Shown here: piece after piece, positions 26,513 through 31,622 of the stretch | How the letters are laid out: each line of letters starts with the position of its first letter | Position numbering within the stretch: the first letter of the stretch is position 1 | DNA from: a virus | Strand: one strand, 5' to 3' | Length of the DNA stretch: 64,000 nucleotides | IMG/VR virus record: IMGVR_UViG_3300010885_031189 | Location: 34,320-98,319 of that record | Made by a program: the position numbers and the translations under genes | Notes under the pieces: model-generated | Told to the model about the DNA's origin: nothing | The model's database searches: none | Seen by the model: the letters and a program-made list of their open reading frames with translations, nothing else

Positions 26513-27529
26513 ATGAGTAATTTATTCAAAAAATCACTAGTTATCACGGATATACATTTCGGCCTAAAGTCAAACAGTATCTTACATAATGAAGACTGTT
26601 TGGCTTTTATCCGATGGGCTACTAAATTAGCAAAAGAACAAGGATGCGAATCCTGTATCTTCATGGGGGATTACCATAATAATCGGGCTACTGTAAATGT
26701 ACAGACTCTTAGCTATTGTATGCAAGGACTTGAACATCTAAGTGAAAACTTTGACCAAGTATTCTTCATCCCTGGTAATCACGATCTGTTCTTTAGAGAT
26801 AAACGAGATATTCATAGTTCGGCTTGGGCTAAACATCTTTCAAATGTAATTATCTGTAATGATTGGTTCAAATCAGGAGATGTTACCATTGTGCCGTGGT
26901 TAGTTGGTGATGACTTCAAACAAATACCAAAAGTGGATACTAAATACACATTCGGACACTTTGAACTACCACATTTTTATATGAATGCTATGGTTCGTAT
27001 GCCTGAACATGCTGGTATTCAACGAGAAGACTTTGTTAATACGCAACATGTGTTTAGTGGGCACTTTCATAAACGCCAATCTCACCAAAATATCACTTAT
27101 ATTGGAAACTGCTTTCCACATAACTATGCGGATGCAGGAGATGATGATAGAGGATGCATGATTTTAGAATGGGGTCAACCACCAGAATTCCATGCTTGGC
27201 CTGATCAACCAGTATATCGCGTATATAACCTAAGTGATGTACTTGAGAACACAGATAAGCTATTATTAGCTGGAATGCACGCCCGTGTAAACTTGGATAT
27301 TGATATTTCATATGAAGAAGCATCTTTCATTAAGGATACCTTCATGGAAACATACAAATTGAGAGAAATTAAACTGATAGCTCACCAAAACAATTCACTA
27401 GATGGTAATATGTCACTAGGAAATATCACTTTCCAAAGTGTAGACCAGATTGTATCTGAAAACTTGACTTCAATTGCTAGTGAACATTATGACCCTAAGG
27501 TATTACTGGACATTTACCGAAATCTCTGA
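26513..27529 (+). CDS. gp47: Recombination nuclease gp47 (Mre11/SbcD family)
   Basis: Metallophosphoesterase motifs DIHFG, GDYH, GNHD, GHF, SGHFH. Confidence 0.92.
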   Translation: MSNLFKKSLVITDIHFGLKSNSILHNEDCLAFIRWATKLAKEQGCESCIFMGDYHNNRATVNVQTLSYCMQGLEHLSENFDQVFFIPGNHDLFFRDKRDIHSSAWAKHLSNVIICNDWFKSGDVTIVPWLVGDDFKQIPKVDTKYTFGHFELPHFYMNAMVRMPEHAGIQREDFVNTQHVFSGHFHKRQSHQNITYIGNCFPHNYADAGDDDRGCMILEWGQPPEFHAWPDQPVYRVYNLSDVLENTDKLLLAGMHARVNLDIDISYEEASFIKDTFMETYKLREIKLIAHQNNSLDGNMSLGNITFQSVDQIVSENLTSIASEHYDPKVLLDIYRNL

Positions 27530-29295
27530 TGCTAAAAATCAAATCAATAACTGCTAAAAATTTCCTGTCAATTGGTAATGTTACACAAAGCGTAAATTTA
27601 GATCGTACTGACTTAACCCTAATCCTCGGTGAAAACTTGGACTTGGGTGGAGATGACTCTGGTTCTAGAAACGGAGTAGGAAAAACAGCTATATTACATG
27701 CAGTAAGCTATGCTCTGTATGGCGCTGCTCTAACTAGTATCAAAAAAGACAATCTTATCAATCGTACTAACGGGAAGAATATGCTTGTTACGGTTGAATT
27801 TGAAAAAGACGGAATAGAATATCGCATTGAACGAGGACGTAAACCAAATGTCATGCGATTCTATGTGGGCAGTGTAGAACAACAAGTTACAGATGAAAGT
27901 CAAGGAGACAGTAGAGAAACGCAAACTGTAATTGAGCGTTTACTTTGTATGAGTCATACAATGTTCAAACATATTGTTGCTCTTAACACTTATACTGAAC
28001 CTTTTCTAAGTCTAAAGGCCAATGAACAACGGGAAATCATTGAACAACTACTTGGTATCACATTATTGAGTGAAAAGGCCGATCTTTTAAAAGAACGAGT
28101 TCGTAATAGCAAAGATTCTATCACTCAAGAAGAGTTCAGGATAAAAGCAACCAATGATGCGAACAAACGAATTGAGGAACAGATTACTGCACTCAAGCGC
28201 AGACAAACAATGTGGTTAACCAAGCATACTTCTGATTGTTCAGACTTAGTGGCCGCGTATGATCAATTGAATCAAATTGACATTGATGTAGAAATTGCTT
28301 CCCACAAGTCACTAGCTCTGTATAATCAAAAGAAAACAACAATCGATACCATTGTTGCTTCTTCCAAAAGGACAACAACTGATTTGGCTAAGGAAGAAAA
28401 GACCTCGGCTAAGTTGGCATTGGAAATTACTTCGTTGCAAGATCATAAGTGTTATGCTTGTGGTCAGGATATGCATGATCAAACACATGAAAGTGTGTTA
28501 GCTGCAAAAATCAAGCTACTAGATGAATCAAATTCTCAAATTGCAACCTACAAAGAACAAATTAGTGCATATGCTAGTGAAATTTTAAAATTAGGTGATA
28601 TTGGTATTGCACCGACTGTATTCTATGATTCGGAGTCTGATGCAGTTGAACATAGATCAAGCTTAGCAAGTTTACAAACTCAATTGAATACAAAAAATGC
28701 AGAGATTGATCCGTATGCTGATCAAATTTCAGAAATGATTAGAACTGCCCTTGAAGTTGTTAGTTATGATACAATTAATTCATTGACTAGTATGAAGGAT
28801 CATGAAGAGTTTTTATTGAAATTATTAACTAACAAAGATAGTTTTATTCGTAAGAAGATTATTGATCAAAACTTGTCATATTTGAATCTACGACTAGGAT
28901 ATTATCTAGAAAAGATTGGATTGCCGCATCAAGTTGAATTCCAGAATGACCTAACTGTTAATATTACTGAACTTGGACGAGACCTTGATTTTGATAATTT
29001 GTCCAGGGGAGAACGTAACCGTTTGATATTGAGTTTAAGTTGGGCATTCCGAGATGTATGGGAAAGTTTGTATCAAAGTATTAATTTGTTATTTGTTGAT
29101 GAGTTAGTAGATTCAGGGTTAGATTCAAGTGGAATGGAAAGTGCATTAGCAATTCTAAAGAAGATTAGCCGAGATAGCAAGAAAAGTGTGTGGCTAGTAA
29201 GTCACCGAGATGAATTAGTGGCCCGAGTAGAGAACATCCTTAGAGTAACCAAGTCTAATGGATTCACTACATATGGGTCAGATGTAGAGATTTAA
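27529..29295 (+). CDS. gp46: Recombination ATPase gp46 (Rad50/SbcC family)
   Basis: KNFLSIGN, Walker A RNGVGKT, coiled coil with CYAC zinc hook, signature LSRGE, Walker B LFVDE, VSH switch. Confidence 0.93.
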   Translation: MLKIKSITAKNFLSIGNVTQSVNLDRTDLTLILGENLDLGGDDSGSRNGVGKTAILHAVSYALYGAALTSIKKDNLINRTNGKNMLVTVEFEKDGIEYRIERGRKPNVMRFYVGSVEQQVTDESQGDSRETQTVIERLLCMSHTMFKHIVALNTYTEPFLSLKANEQREIIEQLLGITLLSEKADLLKERVRNSKDSITQEEFRIKATNDANKRIEEQITALKRRQTMWLTKHTSDCSDLVAAYDQLNQIDIDVEIASHKSLALYNQKKTTIDTIVASSKRTTTDLAKEEKTSAKLALEITSLQDHKCYACGQDMHDQTHESVLAAKIKLLDESNSQIATYKEQISAYASEILKLGDIGIAPTVFYDSESDAVEHRSSLASLQTQLNTKNAEIDPYADQISEMIRTALEVVSYDTINSLTSMKDHEEFLLKLLTNKDSFIRKKIIDQNLSYLNLRLGYYLEKIGLPHQVEFQNDLTVNITELGRDLDFDNLSRGERNRLILSLSWAFRDVWESLYQSINLLFVDELVDSGLDSSGMESALAILKKISRDSKKSVWLVSHRDELVARVENILRVTKSNGFTTYGSDVEI

Positions 29296-29432
29296 CTGTT
29301 TATGCGGATGAACAATAAACCTAAAATAGTAAATGAAACCGATTGATTTAGCACCAATCACCCCGCATAAGCAGTTACTTTTTTTTAGCAGTGATGTAGG
29401 AACGATAAGTACTTCACGATGAGAATTTATAA

Positions 29433-29945
29433 ATGAGTGGATCAAAGAGTAAGAACAAAGGCAATTCGTGGGAACGCACTGTTGCCAAATTTCTATCTGA
29501 TTTGTATTCCGCTCCGTTTATTAGAACTCCCCATAGTGGAGCATTCATTGGAGGCATGAACTCAATAAGAAAGCAATCATTGAGTGAAAGCCAAATCAAG
29601 AATTTCAAGGGAGACATTATACCCCCTGAAACTTGGAAAAAGTTTAACTGTGAAGCAAAGTCGTATGCTGACTTTCCGTTTCATCAGTTATATCAAACAA
29701 ATGTACCTATCCTAGAAAAATGGATTGAGCAAGTACTTGAAGTTGCTGATGAAGGCGATTTCAATGTAATTATCATGAAGTTCAACCGAAAAGGTAGTTA
29801 TGTTGCAACACAATTGACACCAAGTCTAATCACAAACTCAAACTTCTTCACATATAAATCATTAAATCATGGAGTCTGGCTCATACAAGATTTTGAATCT
29901 TTTTGGACCGCCAACTCTGCCAATATAAAAACCCTTTGCGAATAA
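29433..29945 (+). CDS. Holliday junction resolvase (Hjc-like PD-(D/E)xK)
   Basis: SKNKGNSWER...RTPHSGA...GDII...EAK. Confidence 0.75.
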   Translation: MSGSKSKNKGNSWERTVAKFLSDLYSAPFIRTPHSGAFIGGMNSIRKQSLSESQIKNFKGDIIPPETWKKFNCEAKSYADFPFHQLYQTNVPILEKWIEQVLEVADEGDFNVIIMKFNRKGSYVATQLTPSLITNSNFFTYKSLNHGVWLIQDFESFWTANSANIKTLCE

Positions 29946-29974
29946 AATAGCCACCAAGGCACGATAACATAGCA

Positions 29975-30330
29975 GTTCTGTTTGATCGGAGTACTTCGAT
30001 CCCCATTGAGGATATGTGAGATACCATATTCAGACTTGGGTACTGCACGATAGGTACCAACGTAAGGTACTAAATGATATAGGCTCTGTTAAAAACCACA
30101 TCCTATGCACATGGCAAGTTAGCTGACTATAGCTTGTTAGATGTCCCGTCATAAACGAATCTAGAGTAGGGAGTACAGGATGACCGCTTCCGCATGCTTT
30201 TGTAACAAGGCACAATCTCTTTTAGTCAGTGTGTAGAAAACACTCAGATGAAAACTGTTTTCCCTCAATTTGGCCTGCCCGGGCCGAATTGTGCTCTACA
30301 TCTAGATGAAGGGGTACTTAAAGAGCAGTC
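29975..30330 (+). ncRNA. Candidate large structured non-coding RNA (family unassigned)
   Basis: No credible ORF; at least seven stems with G-U pairs that read on the + strand; 8-nt pseudoknot pairing 30122-30129 with 30223-30230. Confidence 0.55.
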
Positions 30331-30396
30331 CTTAATAGACAGTAATTAAAATGAATATTCTTTTTACTGTCCTAGAGATTAGGGTTTTAAAGAAAA

Positions 30397-30458
30397 TTGA
30401 TGAGTGAGAGAAGAGCGAAGCGAAGCGAAACGAATCAATAGACTAACGCAGTTAGTCT
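30397..30458 (+). other. ssDNA-type hairpin cluster (tandem G.A stem with GCGAAGC, plus GCA-triloop hairpin); candidate origin or priming signal
   Basis: TTGAT-GA-GT...GCGAAGCGAAGC...AC-GA-ATCAA and AGACTAAC-GCA-GTTAGTCT. Confidence 0.45.
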
Positions 30459-30519
30459 TTATGAATAAACTCACTGTTCTCCAATGAGTTATCCGGTGAT
30501 ACAAATGACATACTACGGC

Positions 30520-30741
30520 TTAGAAAAATGGGAGTCCCGAATTTTTTGTTGTTTCAAGATTTTCTTTAATGATATTACCGATCATTTCTCTTTCTTGGTT
30601 ACTCATCATCATAGCTTCGTTATAAGTGATACCGCCCCTCATATACCAGCATAATCGGAGTGCTTCTTCCTTTAAGGCTTTTGCTTGACTGTCATAACTT
30701 TTTAAGAAAGCCACAACTGATTCCTCATCGTGTAAAGTCAA
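30520..30741 (-). CDS. Tail/baseplate assembly chaperone C-terminal extension (probably made by -1 frameshift)
   Basis: LCWYMRGGITYNEAMMMSNQEREM resembles chaperone GT tails; TTG start without a well-spaced SD; -1 frame to the upstream gene. Confidence 0.6.
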   Translation of the reverse strand: MTLHDEESVVAFLKSYDSQAKALKEEALRLCWYMRGGITYNEAMMMSNQEREMIGNIIKENLETTKNSGLPFF

Positions 30742-31586
30742 AAGCCTTTGCCGAAAAAACTTGCGTAGTCAAAAGTAAGTTCCATGCTGTAAGTCTTTTT
30801 GCATTCAATACAACCAAGATTCAACGGCTTTAATTTAGTTTGTAAGTTTAGTTCTGTTAATTTATCCTGTACTTGTTTTACAACTTTAGATTCAGCTTCT
30901 TTGTAAAATTCTTTAATGTGATCAACATTAGTTACTCTGTCACCATTTTCAAATTCAATATATGCAGTACTATTAGCACATACGCCAGCAGCAAGATCAA
31001 CTAACTTTGTCATTCCTTCTGTCAGCCTAGATGCTCTGTCACCTGGTTCCATCTCAGTCTGACTGATAACATATCGTAGTTTTTCTTCTTCAAATGATAT
31101 TAAATTAGTCTGATTAACAGAAAAATAATGTTGTGGTTTTGTTTTTATTTTTAAGTTTTTATATGAGATAAGATCGTCATAAGACGGACACTTTATTTCT
31201 CCTAATGGAGCACTTAAATCAATTTCATGCGTATTTGTCTCATTGCAATATCCGCATTTACTATCAAAGCTCATGCTATTTCCATAAGTAGCGATTCGTA
31301 TTGCTATTAATATAGCATCAACATCAACACTTGGCATTTCCCATGCATTTTTGATACTAGGGCAACAGCTTTGTATTACATCAACTACACCTTGTCCATT
31401 TAGTAATCCATCCGGAGTCCTAAGCACTATCTCGTCCCTGGTAGTCATCGGGAAAATTGGAATTTCACCAGTTGCAGGTAACTCTAATGCATTTTCTCCC
31501 CACCAATTGCCTTTACTTGGCAAACTTAGATAAATTGCAGGTTGTCTAAAATAACCGAACAATGGGTTTTTTTGATTGTTTTCCAT
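30738..31586 (-). CDS. Baseplate hub/tail assembly chaperone, gp26-like
   Basis: LPSKG...PMTTRDEI...DVDAILIAIRIATYG...CGYC and CIEC zinc pairs. Confidence 0.75.
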   Translation of the reverse strand: MENNQKNPLFGYFRQPAIYLSLPSKGNWWGENALELPATGEIPIFPMTTRDEIVLRTPDGLLNGQGVVDVIQSCCPSIKNAWEMPSVDVDAILIAIRIATYGNSMSFDSKCGYCNETNTHEIDLSAPLGEIKCPSYDDLISYKNLKIKTKPQHYFSVNQTNLISFEEEKLRYVISQTEMEPGDRASRLTEGMTKLVDLAAGVCANSTAYIEFENGDRVTNVDHIKEFYKEAESKVVKQVQDKLTELNLQTKLKPLNLGCIECKKTYSMELTFDYASFFGKGF

Positions 31587-31596
31587 ATGTCAAAAT

Positions 31597-31622
31597 CCTA
31601 TAAATATATGTATATTTATAGG
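31597..31622. promoter_or_regulatory. Palindromic bidirectional late promoter
   Basis: CCTATAAATATA-TG-TATATTTATAGG perfect 12-bp inverted repeat with TATAAATA on both strands, between divergent genes. Confidence 0.7.

What the first reader, a model, noticed from the sequence alone, without database searches (positions are those of the whole stretch)
30338..30460. DNA-type hairpins (GCGAAGC, tandem sheared G.A, GCA triloop) just downstream of the RNA: possible RNA-primed origin
Seen: TTGAT-GA-GT...AC-GA-ATCAA (30397-30438) pairs only if tandem G.A mismatches are allowed, and it encloses overlapping GCGAAGC copies (30415-30426). It is followed by AGACTAAC-GCA-GTTAGTCT (30440-30458) and preceded by an AT-rich stretch with a GACAGTAA/TTACTGTC inverted repeat. 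Known: d(GCGAAGC), GNA triloops and tandem G.A pairs are unusually stable in single-stranded DNA and occur in phage origins and ssDNA promoters; T4 origins and ColE1 are primed by R-loop RNAs. Inference: the structured RNA and these hairpins, at a convergent-transcription boundary beside recombination genes, form one replication-initiation module in which the RNA forms an R-loop and the displaced + strand folds into a protein-loading signal.
Basis: partly seen in the sequence, partly recalled or inferred. Interest (0 to 1): 0.7.

Follow-up and report, generated by a model that had tools for sequence, protein, structure and literature searches.

The report
Conserved double hairpin ending a phage RNA
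Two abutting hairpins just after a large structured RNA are real and are conserved with compensatory changes in about 60 related uncultured jumbo phages; they most likely cap the RNA's 3' end, but their strictly Watson-Crick, DNA-mini-hairpin-like signature keeps a replication-signal reading alive.

Summary
Hairpin A (30396-30439) has a 6-bp stem, a tandem G.A, a 2-bp inner stem and a loop. Hairpin B (30440-30458) follows with no linker. Alone they are not significant (z -1.1 to -2.1). A covariance model finds the same module once per locus in 59 distinct IMG/VR sequences: 99.3% of stem cells paired, 15 of 16 pairs with compensatory changes, GA...GA invariant. The module always lies 12-110 nt 3' of the ~360-nt structured RNA, on the same strand, and stays with the RNA when the downstream gene differs.

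The GCGAAGC copies, the GACAGTAA repeat and the 60-nt tail are specific to the window's lineage.

The stems almost never use G.U (1 of 905 cells, against 9-22% in the RNA core). The loops follow C(GNNA)G and C(GNA)G, the DNA mini-hairpin consensus. A T-run follows the module on the minus strand only, but that hairpin is weak.

Best reading (0.45): the RNA's 3'-terminal cap and a transcription-boundary element. No GC-skew signal was found. No RNA data were available.

The parts
29946..30310 (+). Conserved ~360-nt structured RNA core ('the RNA' of the finding). It begins at the stop codon of the PDDEXK_15/RusA-like nuclease gene (29433-29945).
   Evidence: blastn and nhmmer conservation in relatives. 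Covarying stems hold 9-22% G.U pairs, which places it on the + strand as RNA. No Rfam match. No conserved promoter upstream.
30311..30395 (+). Variable A-rich linker, 12-110 nt in relatives. It ends in an A-tract next to hairpin A. In this lineage it holds the inverted repeat 30338-30345/30364-30371.
   Evidence: Alignments. Mean 5.8 A in the 9 nt before stem A. On the minus strand 49 of 58 have at least 5 T in 8. The inverted repeat is present only in the window, L064 and L073.
30396..30439 (+). Hairpin A: 6-bp outer stem 30396-30401/30434-30439; tandem G.A 30402-30403 with 30432-30433; inner 2-bp stem GT/AC 30404-30405/30430-30431; 24-nt loop holding the (GCGAA)n expansion with GCGAAGC x2 at 30415-30426.
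   Evidence: Folds. All 8 pairs covary in 59 sequences and GA..GA is invariant. The loop is C(GNNA)G in 49 of 59 relatives. The loop expansion is lineage-specific.
30440..30458 (+). Hairpin B: 8-bp stem AGACTAAC/GTTAGTCT with a GCA triloop closed by C-G. It abuts hairpin A with no linker.
   Evidence: 7 of 8 pairs show changes on both sides and there are no G.U pairs. AGA/TCT at the base is nearly invariant. The loop is C(GNA)G in 29 of 59.
30459..30519 (.). 60-nt spacer between hairpin B and the stop of the convergent gene. It is absent in most relatives, where the stop codon overlaps the last base of hairpin B.
30520..31586 (-). Convergent late operon: baseplate-hub gp26-like gene (30738-31586) and a 73-aa gene (30520-30741). 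It is driven by TATAAATA at 31613-31620 (-) and runs toward the module.
   Evidence: Pfam PF12322 and phrog_150. Late-promoter match. The small gene is conserved in relatives.

Best explanation
The two hairpins are the 3'-terminal domain of a 400-520-nt structured RNA. This RNA forms the long 3' untranslated end of the gp46/gp47/nuclease operon of an uncultured jumbo myovirus. Shown: the module is a single-copy, covarying double hairpin. It has an outer stem, a tandem sheared-type G.A, a GC/GC inner stem, a GNNA loop, and then directly an 8-bp hairpin. It is always 3' of the RNA core on the same strand and sits at the boundary with the next transcription unit. Inferred: the two helices stack on each other and form a compact, nuclease-resistant cap. 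This cap would define and protect the RNA's 3' end, because read-through transcripts would be trimmed back to it. It may also bind a protein. Its complement followed by a U-run would act as a weak stop for the convergent late baseplate operon, so that late transcription does not run antisense into the RNA. A need to fold on both strands would explain why G.U pairs are excluded from the stems. The G.A pairs and the G...A loops serve the + strand.
For: The module lies 12-110 nt 3' of the RNA core on the same strand in every locus where the core is detectable. The distance from RNA start to module end is a steady 404-470 nt, or 521 in this lineage. Variant modules follow the core in L037-L041 and L043. 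The module stays with the RNA when the downstream gene is replaced by unrelated convergent genes or by a co-directional gene. It is single-copy in the 98-kb and 199-kb contigs, so it is not a generic repeated terminator. Covariation is very strong. The + strand fold is more stable than the - strand fold in 63 of 63 sequences, mean -16.2 against -12.4 kcal/mol. GA..GA is invariant. No conserved promoter lies upstream, and the core starts at the upstream stop codon, so it is co-transcribed with the operon. A T-run follows the complement of hairpin A in 49 of 58 sequences, against 2 of 58 after hairpin B on the + strand. The late promoter TATAAATA at 31613-31620 (-) points at the module.
Against: No U-run follows hairpin B, so it is not a canonical + strand terminator. 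The - strand version of hairpin A is weak, mean -3.7 kcal/mol with range -0.6 to -7.4. It keeps U.C mismatches, which a terminator under selection would lose. Hairpin B is not needed for - strand termination, yet it also has no G.U pairs. The A-tract and the Watson-Crick-only stems persist in the 4 loci whose downstream gene is co-directional. The commonest loop of hairpin A is GAUA, not GNRA, and C(GNA)G triloops are not notably stable in RNA (PMC13037366). No transcript data were available.
Confidence: 0.45

Rival explanations
1. This is the first reader's idea, made more specific: single-stranded DNA hairpins of a ColE1-like initiation module. The structured + strand RNA would prime DNA synthesis or form an R-loop at the A-rich tract. 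The displaced + strand would fold into mini-hairpin-type structures that resist SSB and load a primase or helicase, as at G4-type origins, RSF1010 ssiA/ssiB and the ColE1 primosome assembly site. The hairpins might instead be extruded like the hairpin promoters of phage N4.
For: The stems are strictly Watson-Crick: 1 G.U in 905 cells, against 9-22% G.U in the adjoining RNA core. Many compensatory swaps are transversion-type, as expected if G.T intermediates are not tolerated. Hairpin A's apex is GCGNNAGC with no purine preference at loop position 3 (Y 26, R 21). Hairpin B's loop is C(GNA)G in 29 of 59. This is exactly the mini-hairpin DNA consensus. That motif is reported at G4, St-1 and alpha3 origins (GCGAAAGC, GCGTTAGC), at RSF1010 ssiA and at N4 promoters, and r(GCGAAAGC) melts at only 39 C (PMC13037366). 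About a third of the sequences carry, in the linker, an inverted unit that reads GA-GC-GAA-GC-GA or C(GAA)G on the minus strand. This recalls paired ssi sites on opposite strands around an A/T-rich tract. The module is single-copy per genome. It lies on the same strand as the RNA and downstream of it, as the ColE1 primosome site lies relative to RNA II (established knowledge). Recombination genes gp46/gp47 and a resolvase-like nuclease are adjacent.
Against: There is no positive evidence of replication initiation. GC and AT skew only track the coding strand, and the local cumulative minimum is about 6 kb upstream in G000 and 3-7 kb upstream in G001. No conserved promoter lies directly upstream of the RNA. 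The RNA core is a heavily folded, G.U-containing RNA, which argues for function as folded RNA rather than as a hybrid. RNA and DNA energy models give the same fold with similar z-scores, so they do not discriminate. The loop counts are not phylogenetically independent. The module was not found in the cultured jumbo relatives Atu_ph07, Phosso and PA5oct at E<=0.1.
Confidence: 0.25
2. The module is a protein-binding platform within the RNA. The invariant U-GA-GC...GC-GA(A) core and the invariant AGA/UCU base of hairpin B would be read by a phage or host protein, for example the adjacent nuclease, a processing enzyme or a chaperone. Protein-recognised hairpins are often strictly Watson-Crick.
For: The conserved sequence goes beyond what pairing needs: GA..GA, the inner GC/GC pair in 56-58 of 59, AGA/TCT in 54-57 of 59, and Y/R at the junction. 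The zero-nucleotide junction is conserved. It is single-copy.
Against: No candidate protein was identified. The motif fails the K-turn definition. The reading does not explain the A-tract or the minus-strand mini-hairpin units in the linker.
Confidence: 0.15
3. The module is only the intrinsic terminator of the convergent minus-strand gene, and its + strand features are incidental.
For: On the minus strand the order is stop codon, B', A', then a T-run with at least 5 T in 8 in 49 of 58 sequences. In most relatives the stop codon of the convergent gene overlaps the end of hairpin B. A late promoter drives transcription toward it.
Against: The hairpin next to the T-run averages only -3.7 kcal/mol. 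It retains invariant U.C/C.U mismatches in all 59 sequences. The module follows the RNA, not the convergent gene, and persists where the next gene is co-directional. The + strand fold is more stable in 63 of 63.
Confidence: 0.1

Closest known systems
Mini-hairpin DNA, d(GCGNNAGC)/d(GCGNAGC) (Hirao; review PMC13037366), as found at G4, St-1 and alpha3 complementary-strand origins, RSF1010 ssiA and N4 virion-RNAP hairpin promoters
   Same: The apex of hairpin A is GCGNNAGC in most relatives, including GCGAAAGC and GCGTTAGC. The apex of hairpin B is C(GNA)G, often GCGNAGC. The closing pair is C-G, a G...A sheared pair closes the loop, and the middle loop bases are free. The window itself carries GCGAAGC twice.
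   Different: Here the mini-hairpin sits inside a longer helix with a tandem G.A, in a double-stranded jumbo phage, next to a structured RNA. Nothing shows that it folds as DNA or recruits a primase or polymerase.
ColE1-type origin: structured primer RNA II, RNase H processing at an A-run, and a primosome assembly site on the displaced strand (from established knowledge)
   Same: The order of parts on one strand is the same: a long folded RNA, an A-rich tract, then hairpins of the same polarity downstream.
   Different: There is no RNA I-like antisense regulator, no dedicated promoter, no sequence similarity and no evidence of replication. T4 oriF and oriG have a middle promoter plus an unwinding element and no conserved hairpins.
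Bidirectional intrinsic terminators and 3'-end stabiliser hairpins between convergent bacterial or phage operons
   Same: It sits at a convergent boundary, with an A-tract on one side that is a U-tract on the other strand. Stems that are Watson-Crick on both strands are expected for such elements. Position at the end of an operon is also expected.
   Different: There are two abutting hairpins rather than one. There is no U-tract in the + direction. The minus-strand hairpin next to the U-tract is weak and mismatched. The sequence core is conserved and single-copy, unlike generic terminators.
Tandem sheared G.A motifs in RNA (hammerhead domain 2, K-turns, loop E)
   Same: A 5'-U-GA-G/5'-C-GA-A context closed by a short stem and a G...A loop resembles stem II of the hammerhead with G8 A9/G12 A13 A14.
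   Different: There is no CUGA uridine turn, no three-way junction and no 3-nt bulge 5' of the GA. Rfam gives no hammerhead or K-turn-containing family, even at E<=10.

Membership tests
Intrinsic (Rho-independent) terminator, + strand | Stable hairpin immediately followed by a U-rich tract | tested here: not met
   Only 2 of 58 sequences have at least 5 T in 8 nt after hairpin B. The consensus scan reports no terminator there.
Intrinsic terminator, - strand | Stable, G+C-rich hairpin immediately followed by a U-rich tract | tested here: inconclusive
   The T-run is present in 49 of 58. The adjacent hairpin A' averages -3.7 kcal/mol and carries U.C mismatches.
Mini-hairpin DNA (GCGNNAGC / GCGNAGC) | Sequence consensus: C-G closing pair, G first and A last in a 3-4-nt loop | tested here: met
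   Hairpin A has C(GNNA)G in 49 of 59. Hairpin B has C(GNA)G in 29 of 59 plus 9 GNNA. The window has GCGAAGC x2 and C(GCA)G. The consensus is as given in PMC13037366.
Mini-hairpin DNA (GCGNNAGC / GCGNAGC) | Folds and acts as single-stranded DNA in vivo | not testable with these tools
   RNA and DNA parameters predict the same fold with similar z-scores.
R-loop/RNA-primed origin (ColE1, T4 oriF/oriG) | Dedicated promoter directly upstream of the primer RNA | tested here: inconclusive
   No conserved late or sigma70 motif in 33 diverse relatives, and the RNA core starts at or overlaps the upstream stop codon. The window has a one-mismatch TATAAAAA at about 29925-29932.
R-loop/RNA-primed origin (ColE1, T4 oriF/oriG) | Replication starts there (skew turning point, coverage peak, persistent hybrid) | tested here: inconclusive
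   The skew follows the coding strand. The local minimum is about 6 kb upstream in G000 and 3-7 kb upstream in G001. Coverage and R-loop data were unavailable.
GNRA tetraloop hairpin (RNA) | Purine at loop position 3 | tested here: not met
   Position 3 is a pyrimidine in 26 GNNA loops and a purine in 21. GAUA is the commonest, at 19.
Kink-turn | 3-nt bulge 5' of tandem G.A/A.G between the C and NC helices | tested here: not met
   There are 0 nt on the 5' side and 0-1 nt (A or T) on the 3' side in all 59.
Hammerhead ribozyme | CUGANGA...GAAA core in a three-way junction | tested here: not met
   Relatives read UUGCUGAGCG, and the UGAUGA of the window is a by-product of stem covariation. There is no Rfam hit at E<=10.
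Repeated regulatory stem-loop cassettes of T4-type phages (PeSL-like) or generic terminator repeats | Many copies per genome | tested here: not met
   One copy in the 98-kb G000 and one in the 199-kb G001. One copy per locus.

The most novel reading that the evidence does not exclude
The RNA, the A-tract and the double hairpin form a ColE1-like replication-initiation module of an uncultured jumbo-phage clade. A structured primer RNA is followed by mini-hairpin-DNA loading signals on the displaced strand, with inverted mini-hairpin units on the other strand in some lineages. This would be the first origin architecture defined for these phages and a natural role for GCGNNAGC mini-hairpins in a double-stranded DNA virus.
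Probability: 0.25. Interest if true: 0.85.

Novelty: new variant of a known kind. Interest (0 to 1): 0.6.

Why it matters
The module is a clean, testable case in which comparative data separate two constraints inside one non-coding region. The RNA core tolerates G.U pairs. The terminal double hairpin tolerates none and follows the rules of extraordinarily stable DNA mini-hairpins. If it acts as RNA, it defines the 3' end of an undescribed 400-500-nt phage RNA family and a compact exonuclease-proof cap. If it acts as DNA, it gives the first candidate origin or priming signal for a large clade of freshwater jumbo phages. It would also give a biological role for a motif known mainly from small ssDNA phages and plasmids.

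Tried and rejected
- Rfam: nothing in the window at gathering thresholds. At E<=10 over 29800-30700 there were only chance-level hits.
- tRNA and tmRNA: none.
- Coding reading of the module: rejected. Changes are compensatory across the stems, and no ORF is conserved over it.
- dsDNA operator palindrome: considered for hairpin B and rejected as the main reading. All inner positions keep complementarity (99.4%), and hairpin A is asymmetric.
- K-turn, hammerhead and strict GNRA: defining features not met.
- Repeated terminator or PeSL-like cassette: rejected, because the module is single-copy.
- blastn of 29400-31000 against 50,697 phage records: no match.
- Cultured relatives found through the baseplate hub (Atu_ph07, Phosso, PA5oct, about 30% identity): no module at E<=0.1 and no RNA core by nhmmer. 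PA5oct has only a weak look-alike, which is not among its four published ncRNAs (PMC7318152).
- GC/AT skew on G000 and G001: follows the coding strand only.
- RNA against DNA energy z-scores: do not discriminate.
- MAFFT plus RNAalifold on the full 626-column alignment: recovered only hairpin B and one core stem.
- Literature searches found no description of this RNA or module.

Full report
**Context.** The window is part of a 98-kb IMG/VR virus record, with a CheckV completeness estimate of 28%. The genes around the finding are as follows:
- gp47/gp46-like SbcCD nuclease subunits (26513-29295, +);
- a PDDEXK_15/RusA-like nuclease (29433-29945, +);
- a 575-nt gene-free gap;
- a 73-aa gene (30520-30741, -) and a gp26-like baseplate hub (30738-31586, -);
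- a large structural gene and a T4-type portal.

The closest cultured relatives by the hub protein are jumbo myoviruses (Atu_ph07, Phosso, PA5oct, Rak2-like) at about 30% identity. T4-type late promoters (TATAAATA) stand back to back at 31599-31606 (+) and 31613-31620 (-). The second drives the hub operon toward the finding.

**Observation.**
- Hairpin A is 30396-30439. It has a 6-bp outer stem, G.A/A.G, a GT/AC inner stem, and a 24-nt loop made of GCGAA repeats.
- Hairpin B is 30440-30458, an 8-bp stem with a GCA loop. It follows hairpin A with no linker.
- Single-sequence energies are unremarkable: z -1.1 as DNA and -2.1 as RNA.

**Relatives.**
- Protein-anchored searches fetched 104 loci.
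- The first 365 nt of the gap (the RNA) are about 75% identical in 11 relatives whose flanking proteins are about 70% identical.
- An alignment of the rest showed both hairpins with compensatory changes.
- A 52-position covariance model built from 11 relatives found one full-length hit per locus in 51 loci.
- It also found the module in 35 of 80 further loci drawn from IMG/VR with a degenerate pattern.
- On 59 distinct sequences, 99.3% of 905 stem cells are standard pairs and 15 of 16 pairs change on both sides. There are 221 compensatory cells, 0 of 500 shuffles match, and slid controls reach only 31-44% pairing.
- GA...GA is present in all. The inner pair covaries: GC/GC, GT/AC in the window and L098, AC/GT in L101 and L037.
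- The junction with hairpin B has no linker, and AGA/TCT at the base of B is nearly invariant.
- Only the window, L064 and L073 have the expanded loop with GCGAAGC, the GACAGTAA inverted repeat and the 60-nt tail.

**Linkage to the RNA.**
- nhmmer with the RNA alignment finds the core directly upstream of the module, on the same strand, in every locus where it is detectable. The gap is 12-110 nt.
- RNA start to module end is 404-470 nt, or 521 in this lineage.
- Loci that at first seemed to have the RNA without the module carry variant modules.
- The core has covarying stems with conserved and variable G.U pairs, so it is a + strand RNA.
- It starts at or overlaps the stop codon of the upstream gene and has no conserved promoter, so it is probably the operon's 3' untranslated end.
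- When other genes lie downstream, the module stays with the RNA. These are unrelated convergent genes of 113-354 aa, or in four lineages a co-directional gene 14-33 nt away. In most loci the stop codon of the convergent gene overlaps the last base of hairpin B.
- The module is single-copy in 98-kb and 199-kb contigs.

**An unusual signature.**
- Only one of 905 stem cells is a one-sided (G.U) change. Counted another way, there are 2 G.U and 3 A.C in 959 cells.
- Five hairpins of the adjoining core, folded sequence by sequence, have 9-22% G.U, and hairpin B has 0%.
- Many swaps are transversion-type, such as UA to GC and UA to AU.
- Hairpin A's loop is C(GNNA)G in 49 of 59, with a pyrimidine at position 3 in 26 and a purine in 21; GATA is the commonest.
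- Hairpin B's loop is C(GNA)G in 29 of 59.
- This is the consensus of mini-hairpin DNA, GCGNNAGC/GCGNAGC. It is reported at G4, St-1 and alpha3 origins, RSF1010 ssiA and N4 hairpin promoters, and its RNA counterpart is much less stable (PMC13037366).
- Ten sequences carry, in the linker, an inverted copy of the hairpin A core (TCGCTTCGCTC). Nine others carry a 5-7-bp hairpin whose loop is always CTTCG, which reads C(GAA)G on the minus strand.

**Strand asymmetries.**
- The + strand fold is more stable in 63 of 63 sequences.
- An A-tract precedes hairpin A. On the minus strand, a T-run of at least 5 in 8 therefore follows its complement in 49 of 58. After hairpin B on the + strand this holds in only 2 of 58.
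- That minus-strand hairpin is weak, at a mean of -3.7 kcal/mol.

**Interpretation.**
- I favour (0.45) a 3'-terminal double hairpin of the RNA that caps its 3' end and marks the boundary with the convergent late operon. A requirement to fold on both strands would contribute to the Watson-Crick-only stems.
It has no direct support: skew follows the coding strand, with its local minimum about 6 kb upstream in two genomes, and no transcript, R-loop or coverage data could be obtained. I give it about 0.25.
- A protein-binding RNA platform (0.15) and a pure minus-strand terminator (0.1) remain possible.
- Template-switch correction of quasi-palindromes during replication could also keep the arms perfectly complementary. 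This is an inference, and it would itself imply that the hairpins form in DNA.

**Novelty.** Neither the RNA nor the module matches Rfam, and neither was found in the literature searched.

Noticed in passing
window 29946-30310 and 40+ loci (e.g. L066:543-899, L139:778-1115, L022:5146-5472): The ~360-nt RNA core is a widespread, covarying RNA family with conserved blocks (GAGUAGGGGGUACCGG..ACCGCCUCCG, ACUCAGAUGA, AUCUAGAUGA). It has no Rfam match. It starts at the stop codon of a PDDEXK_15 nuclease gene and has no conserved promoter.
   Followed up: partly
immediately 3' of hairpin B in relatives (L131, L182, L146, L171, L115, L139, L050, L010, L045, L098): Gene content right after the module is highly variable. 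Unrelated genes of 113-435 aa are inserted between the module and the small73/hub operon, as if this were an insertion hotspot.
   Followed up: partly
linker of L016, L012, L139, L145, L184, L146, L003, L115, L140; and of L056, L050, L119, L152, L133, L045, L098, L061: Some linkers hold inverted copies of the hairpin A core (TCGCTTCGCTC). Others hold 5-7-bp hairpins with an invariant CTTCG apex, which reads C(GAA)G on the minus strand. L070, L071, L072 and L075 instead carry a direct copy of the 3' half (GCGAAGCAAT).
   Followed up: partly
L230:5379-5437 (+) = Pseudomonas phage PA5oct NC_071039 about 76768-76826 (-): A look-alike double hairpin (TTATGAC-AT-GA-GT-GTAA-AC-GA-AA-GTCATAA, then ATCTACCCC-TTTTC-GGGGTAGAT) sits in a 660-nt unannotated gap near the hub and RusA-like genes. 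The model scores it at only E 0.8. It has no RNA core upstream and is not among the four published ncRNAs.
   Followed up: partly
window 31599-31620: Two TATAAATA late-promoter matches stand back to back on opposite strands, between the hub operon and the 729-aa structural gene.
   Followed up: no
window about 24000 (G000 about 58 kb); G001 about 72-75 kb: A local minimum of cumulative GC skew sits at the divergent switch from a ~30-kb minus-strand gene block to the plus-strand block. It lies about 6 kb upstream of the module in the window's genome (G000) and 3-7 kb upstream in G001.
   Followed up: partly
window 30406-30429: The hairpin A loop in this lineage is a (GCGAA)n-type expansion of about 20 nt. 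L064 and L073 differ from the window at two bases inside it, which suggests recent slippage.
   Followed up: no
L229 (Sinorhizobium phage Phosso) 5724-6737: A ~1-kb unannotated gap lies between an RNase HI gene and a Holliday-junction resolvase gene, in the region syntenic with the window's RNA locus. Neither the module nor the core was detected there.
   Followed up: partly
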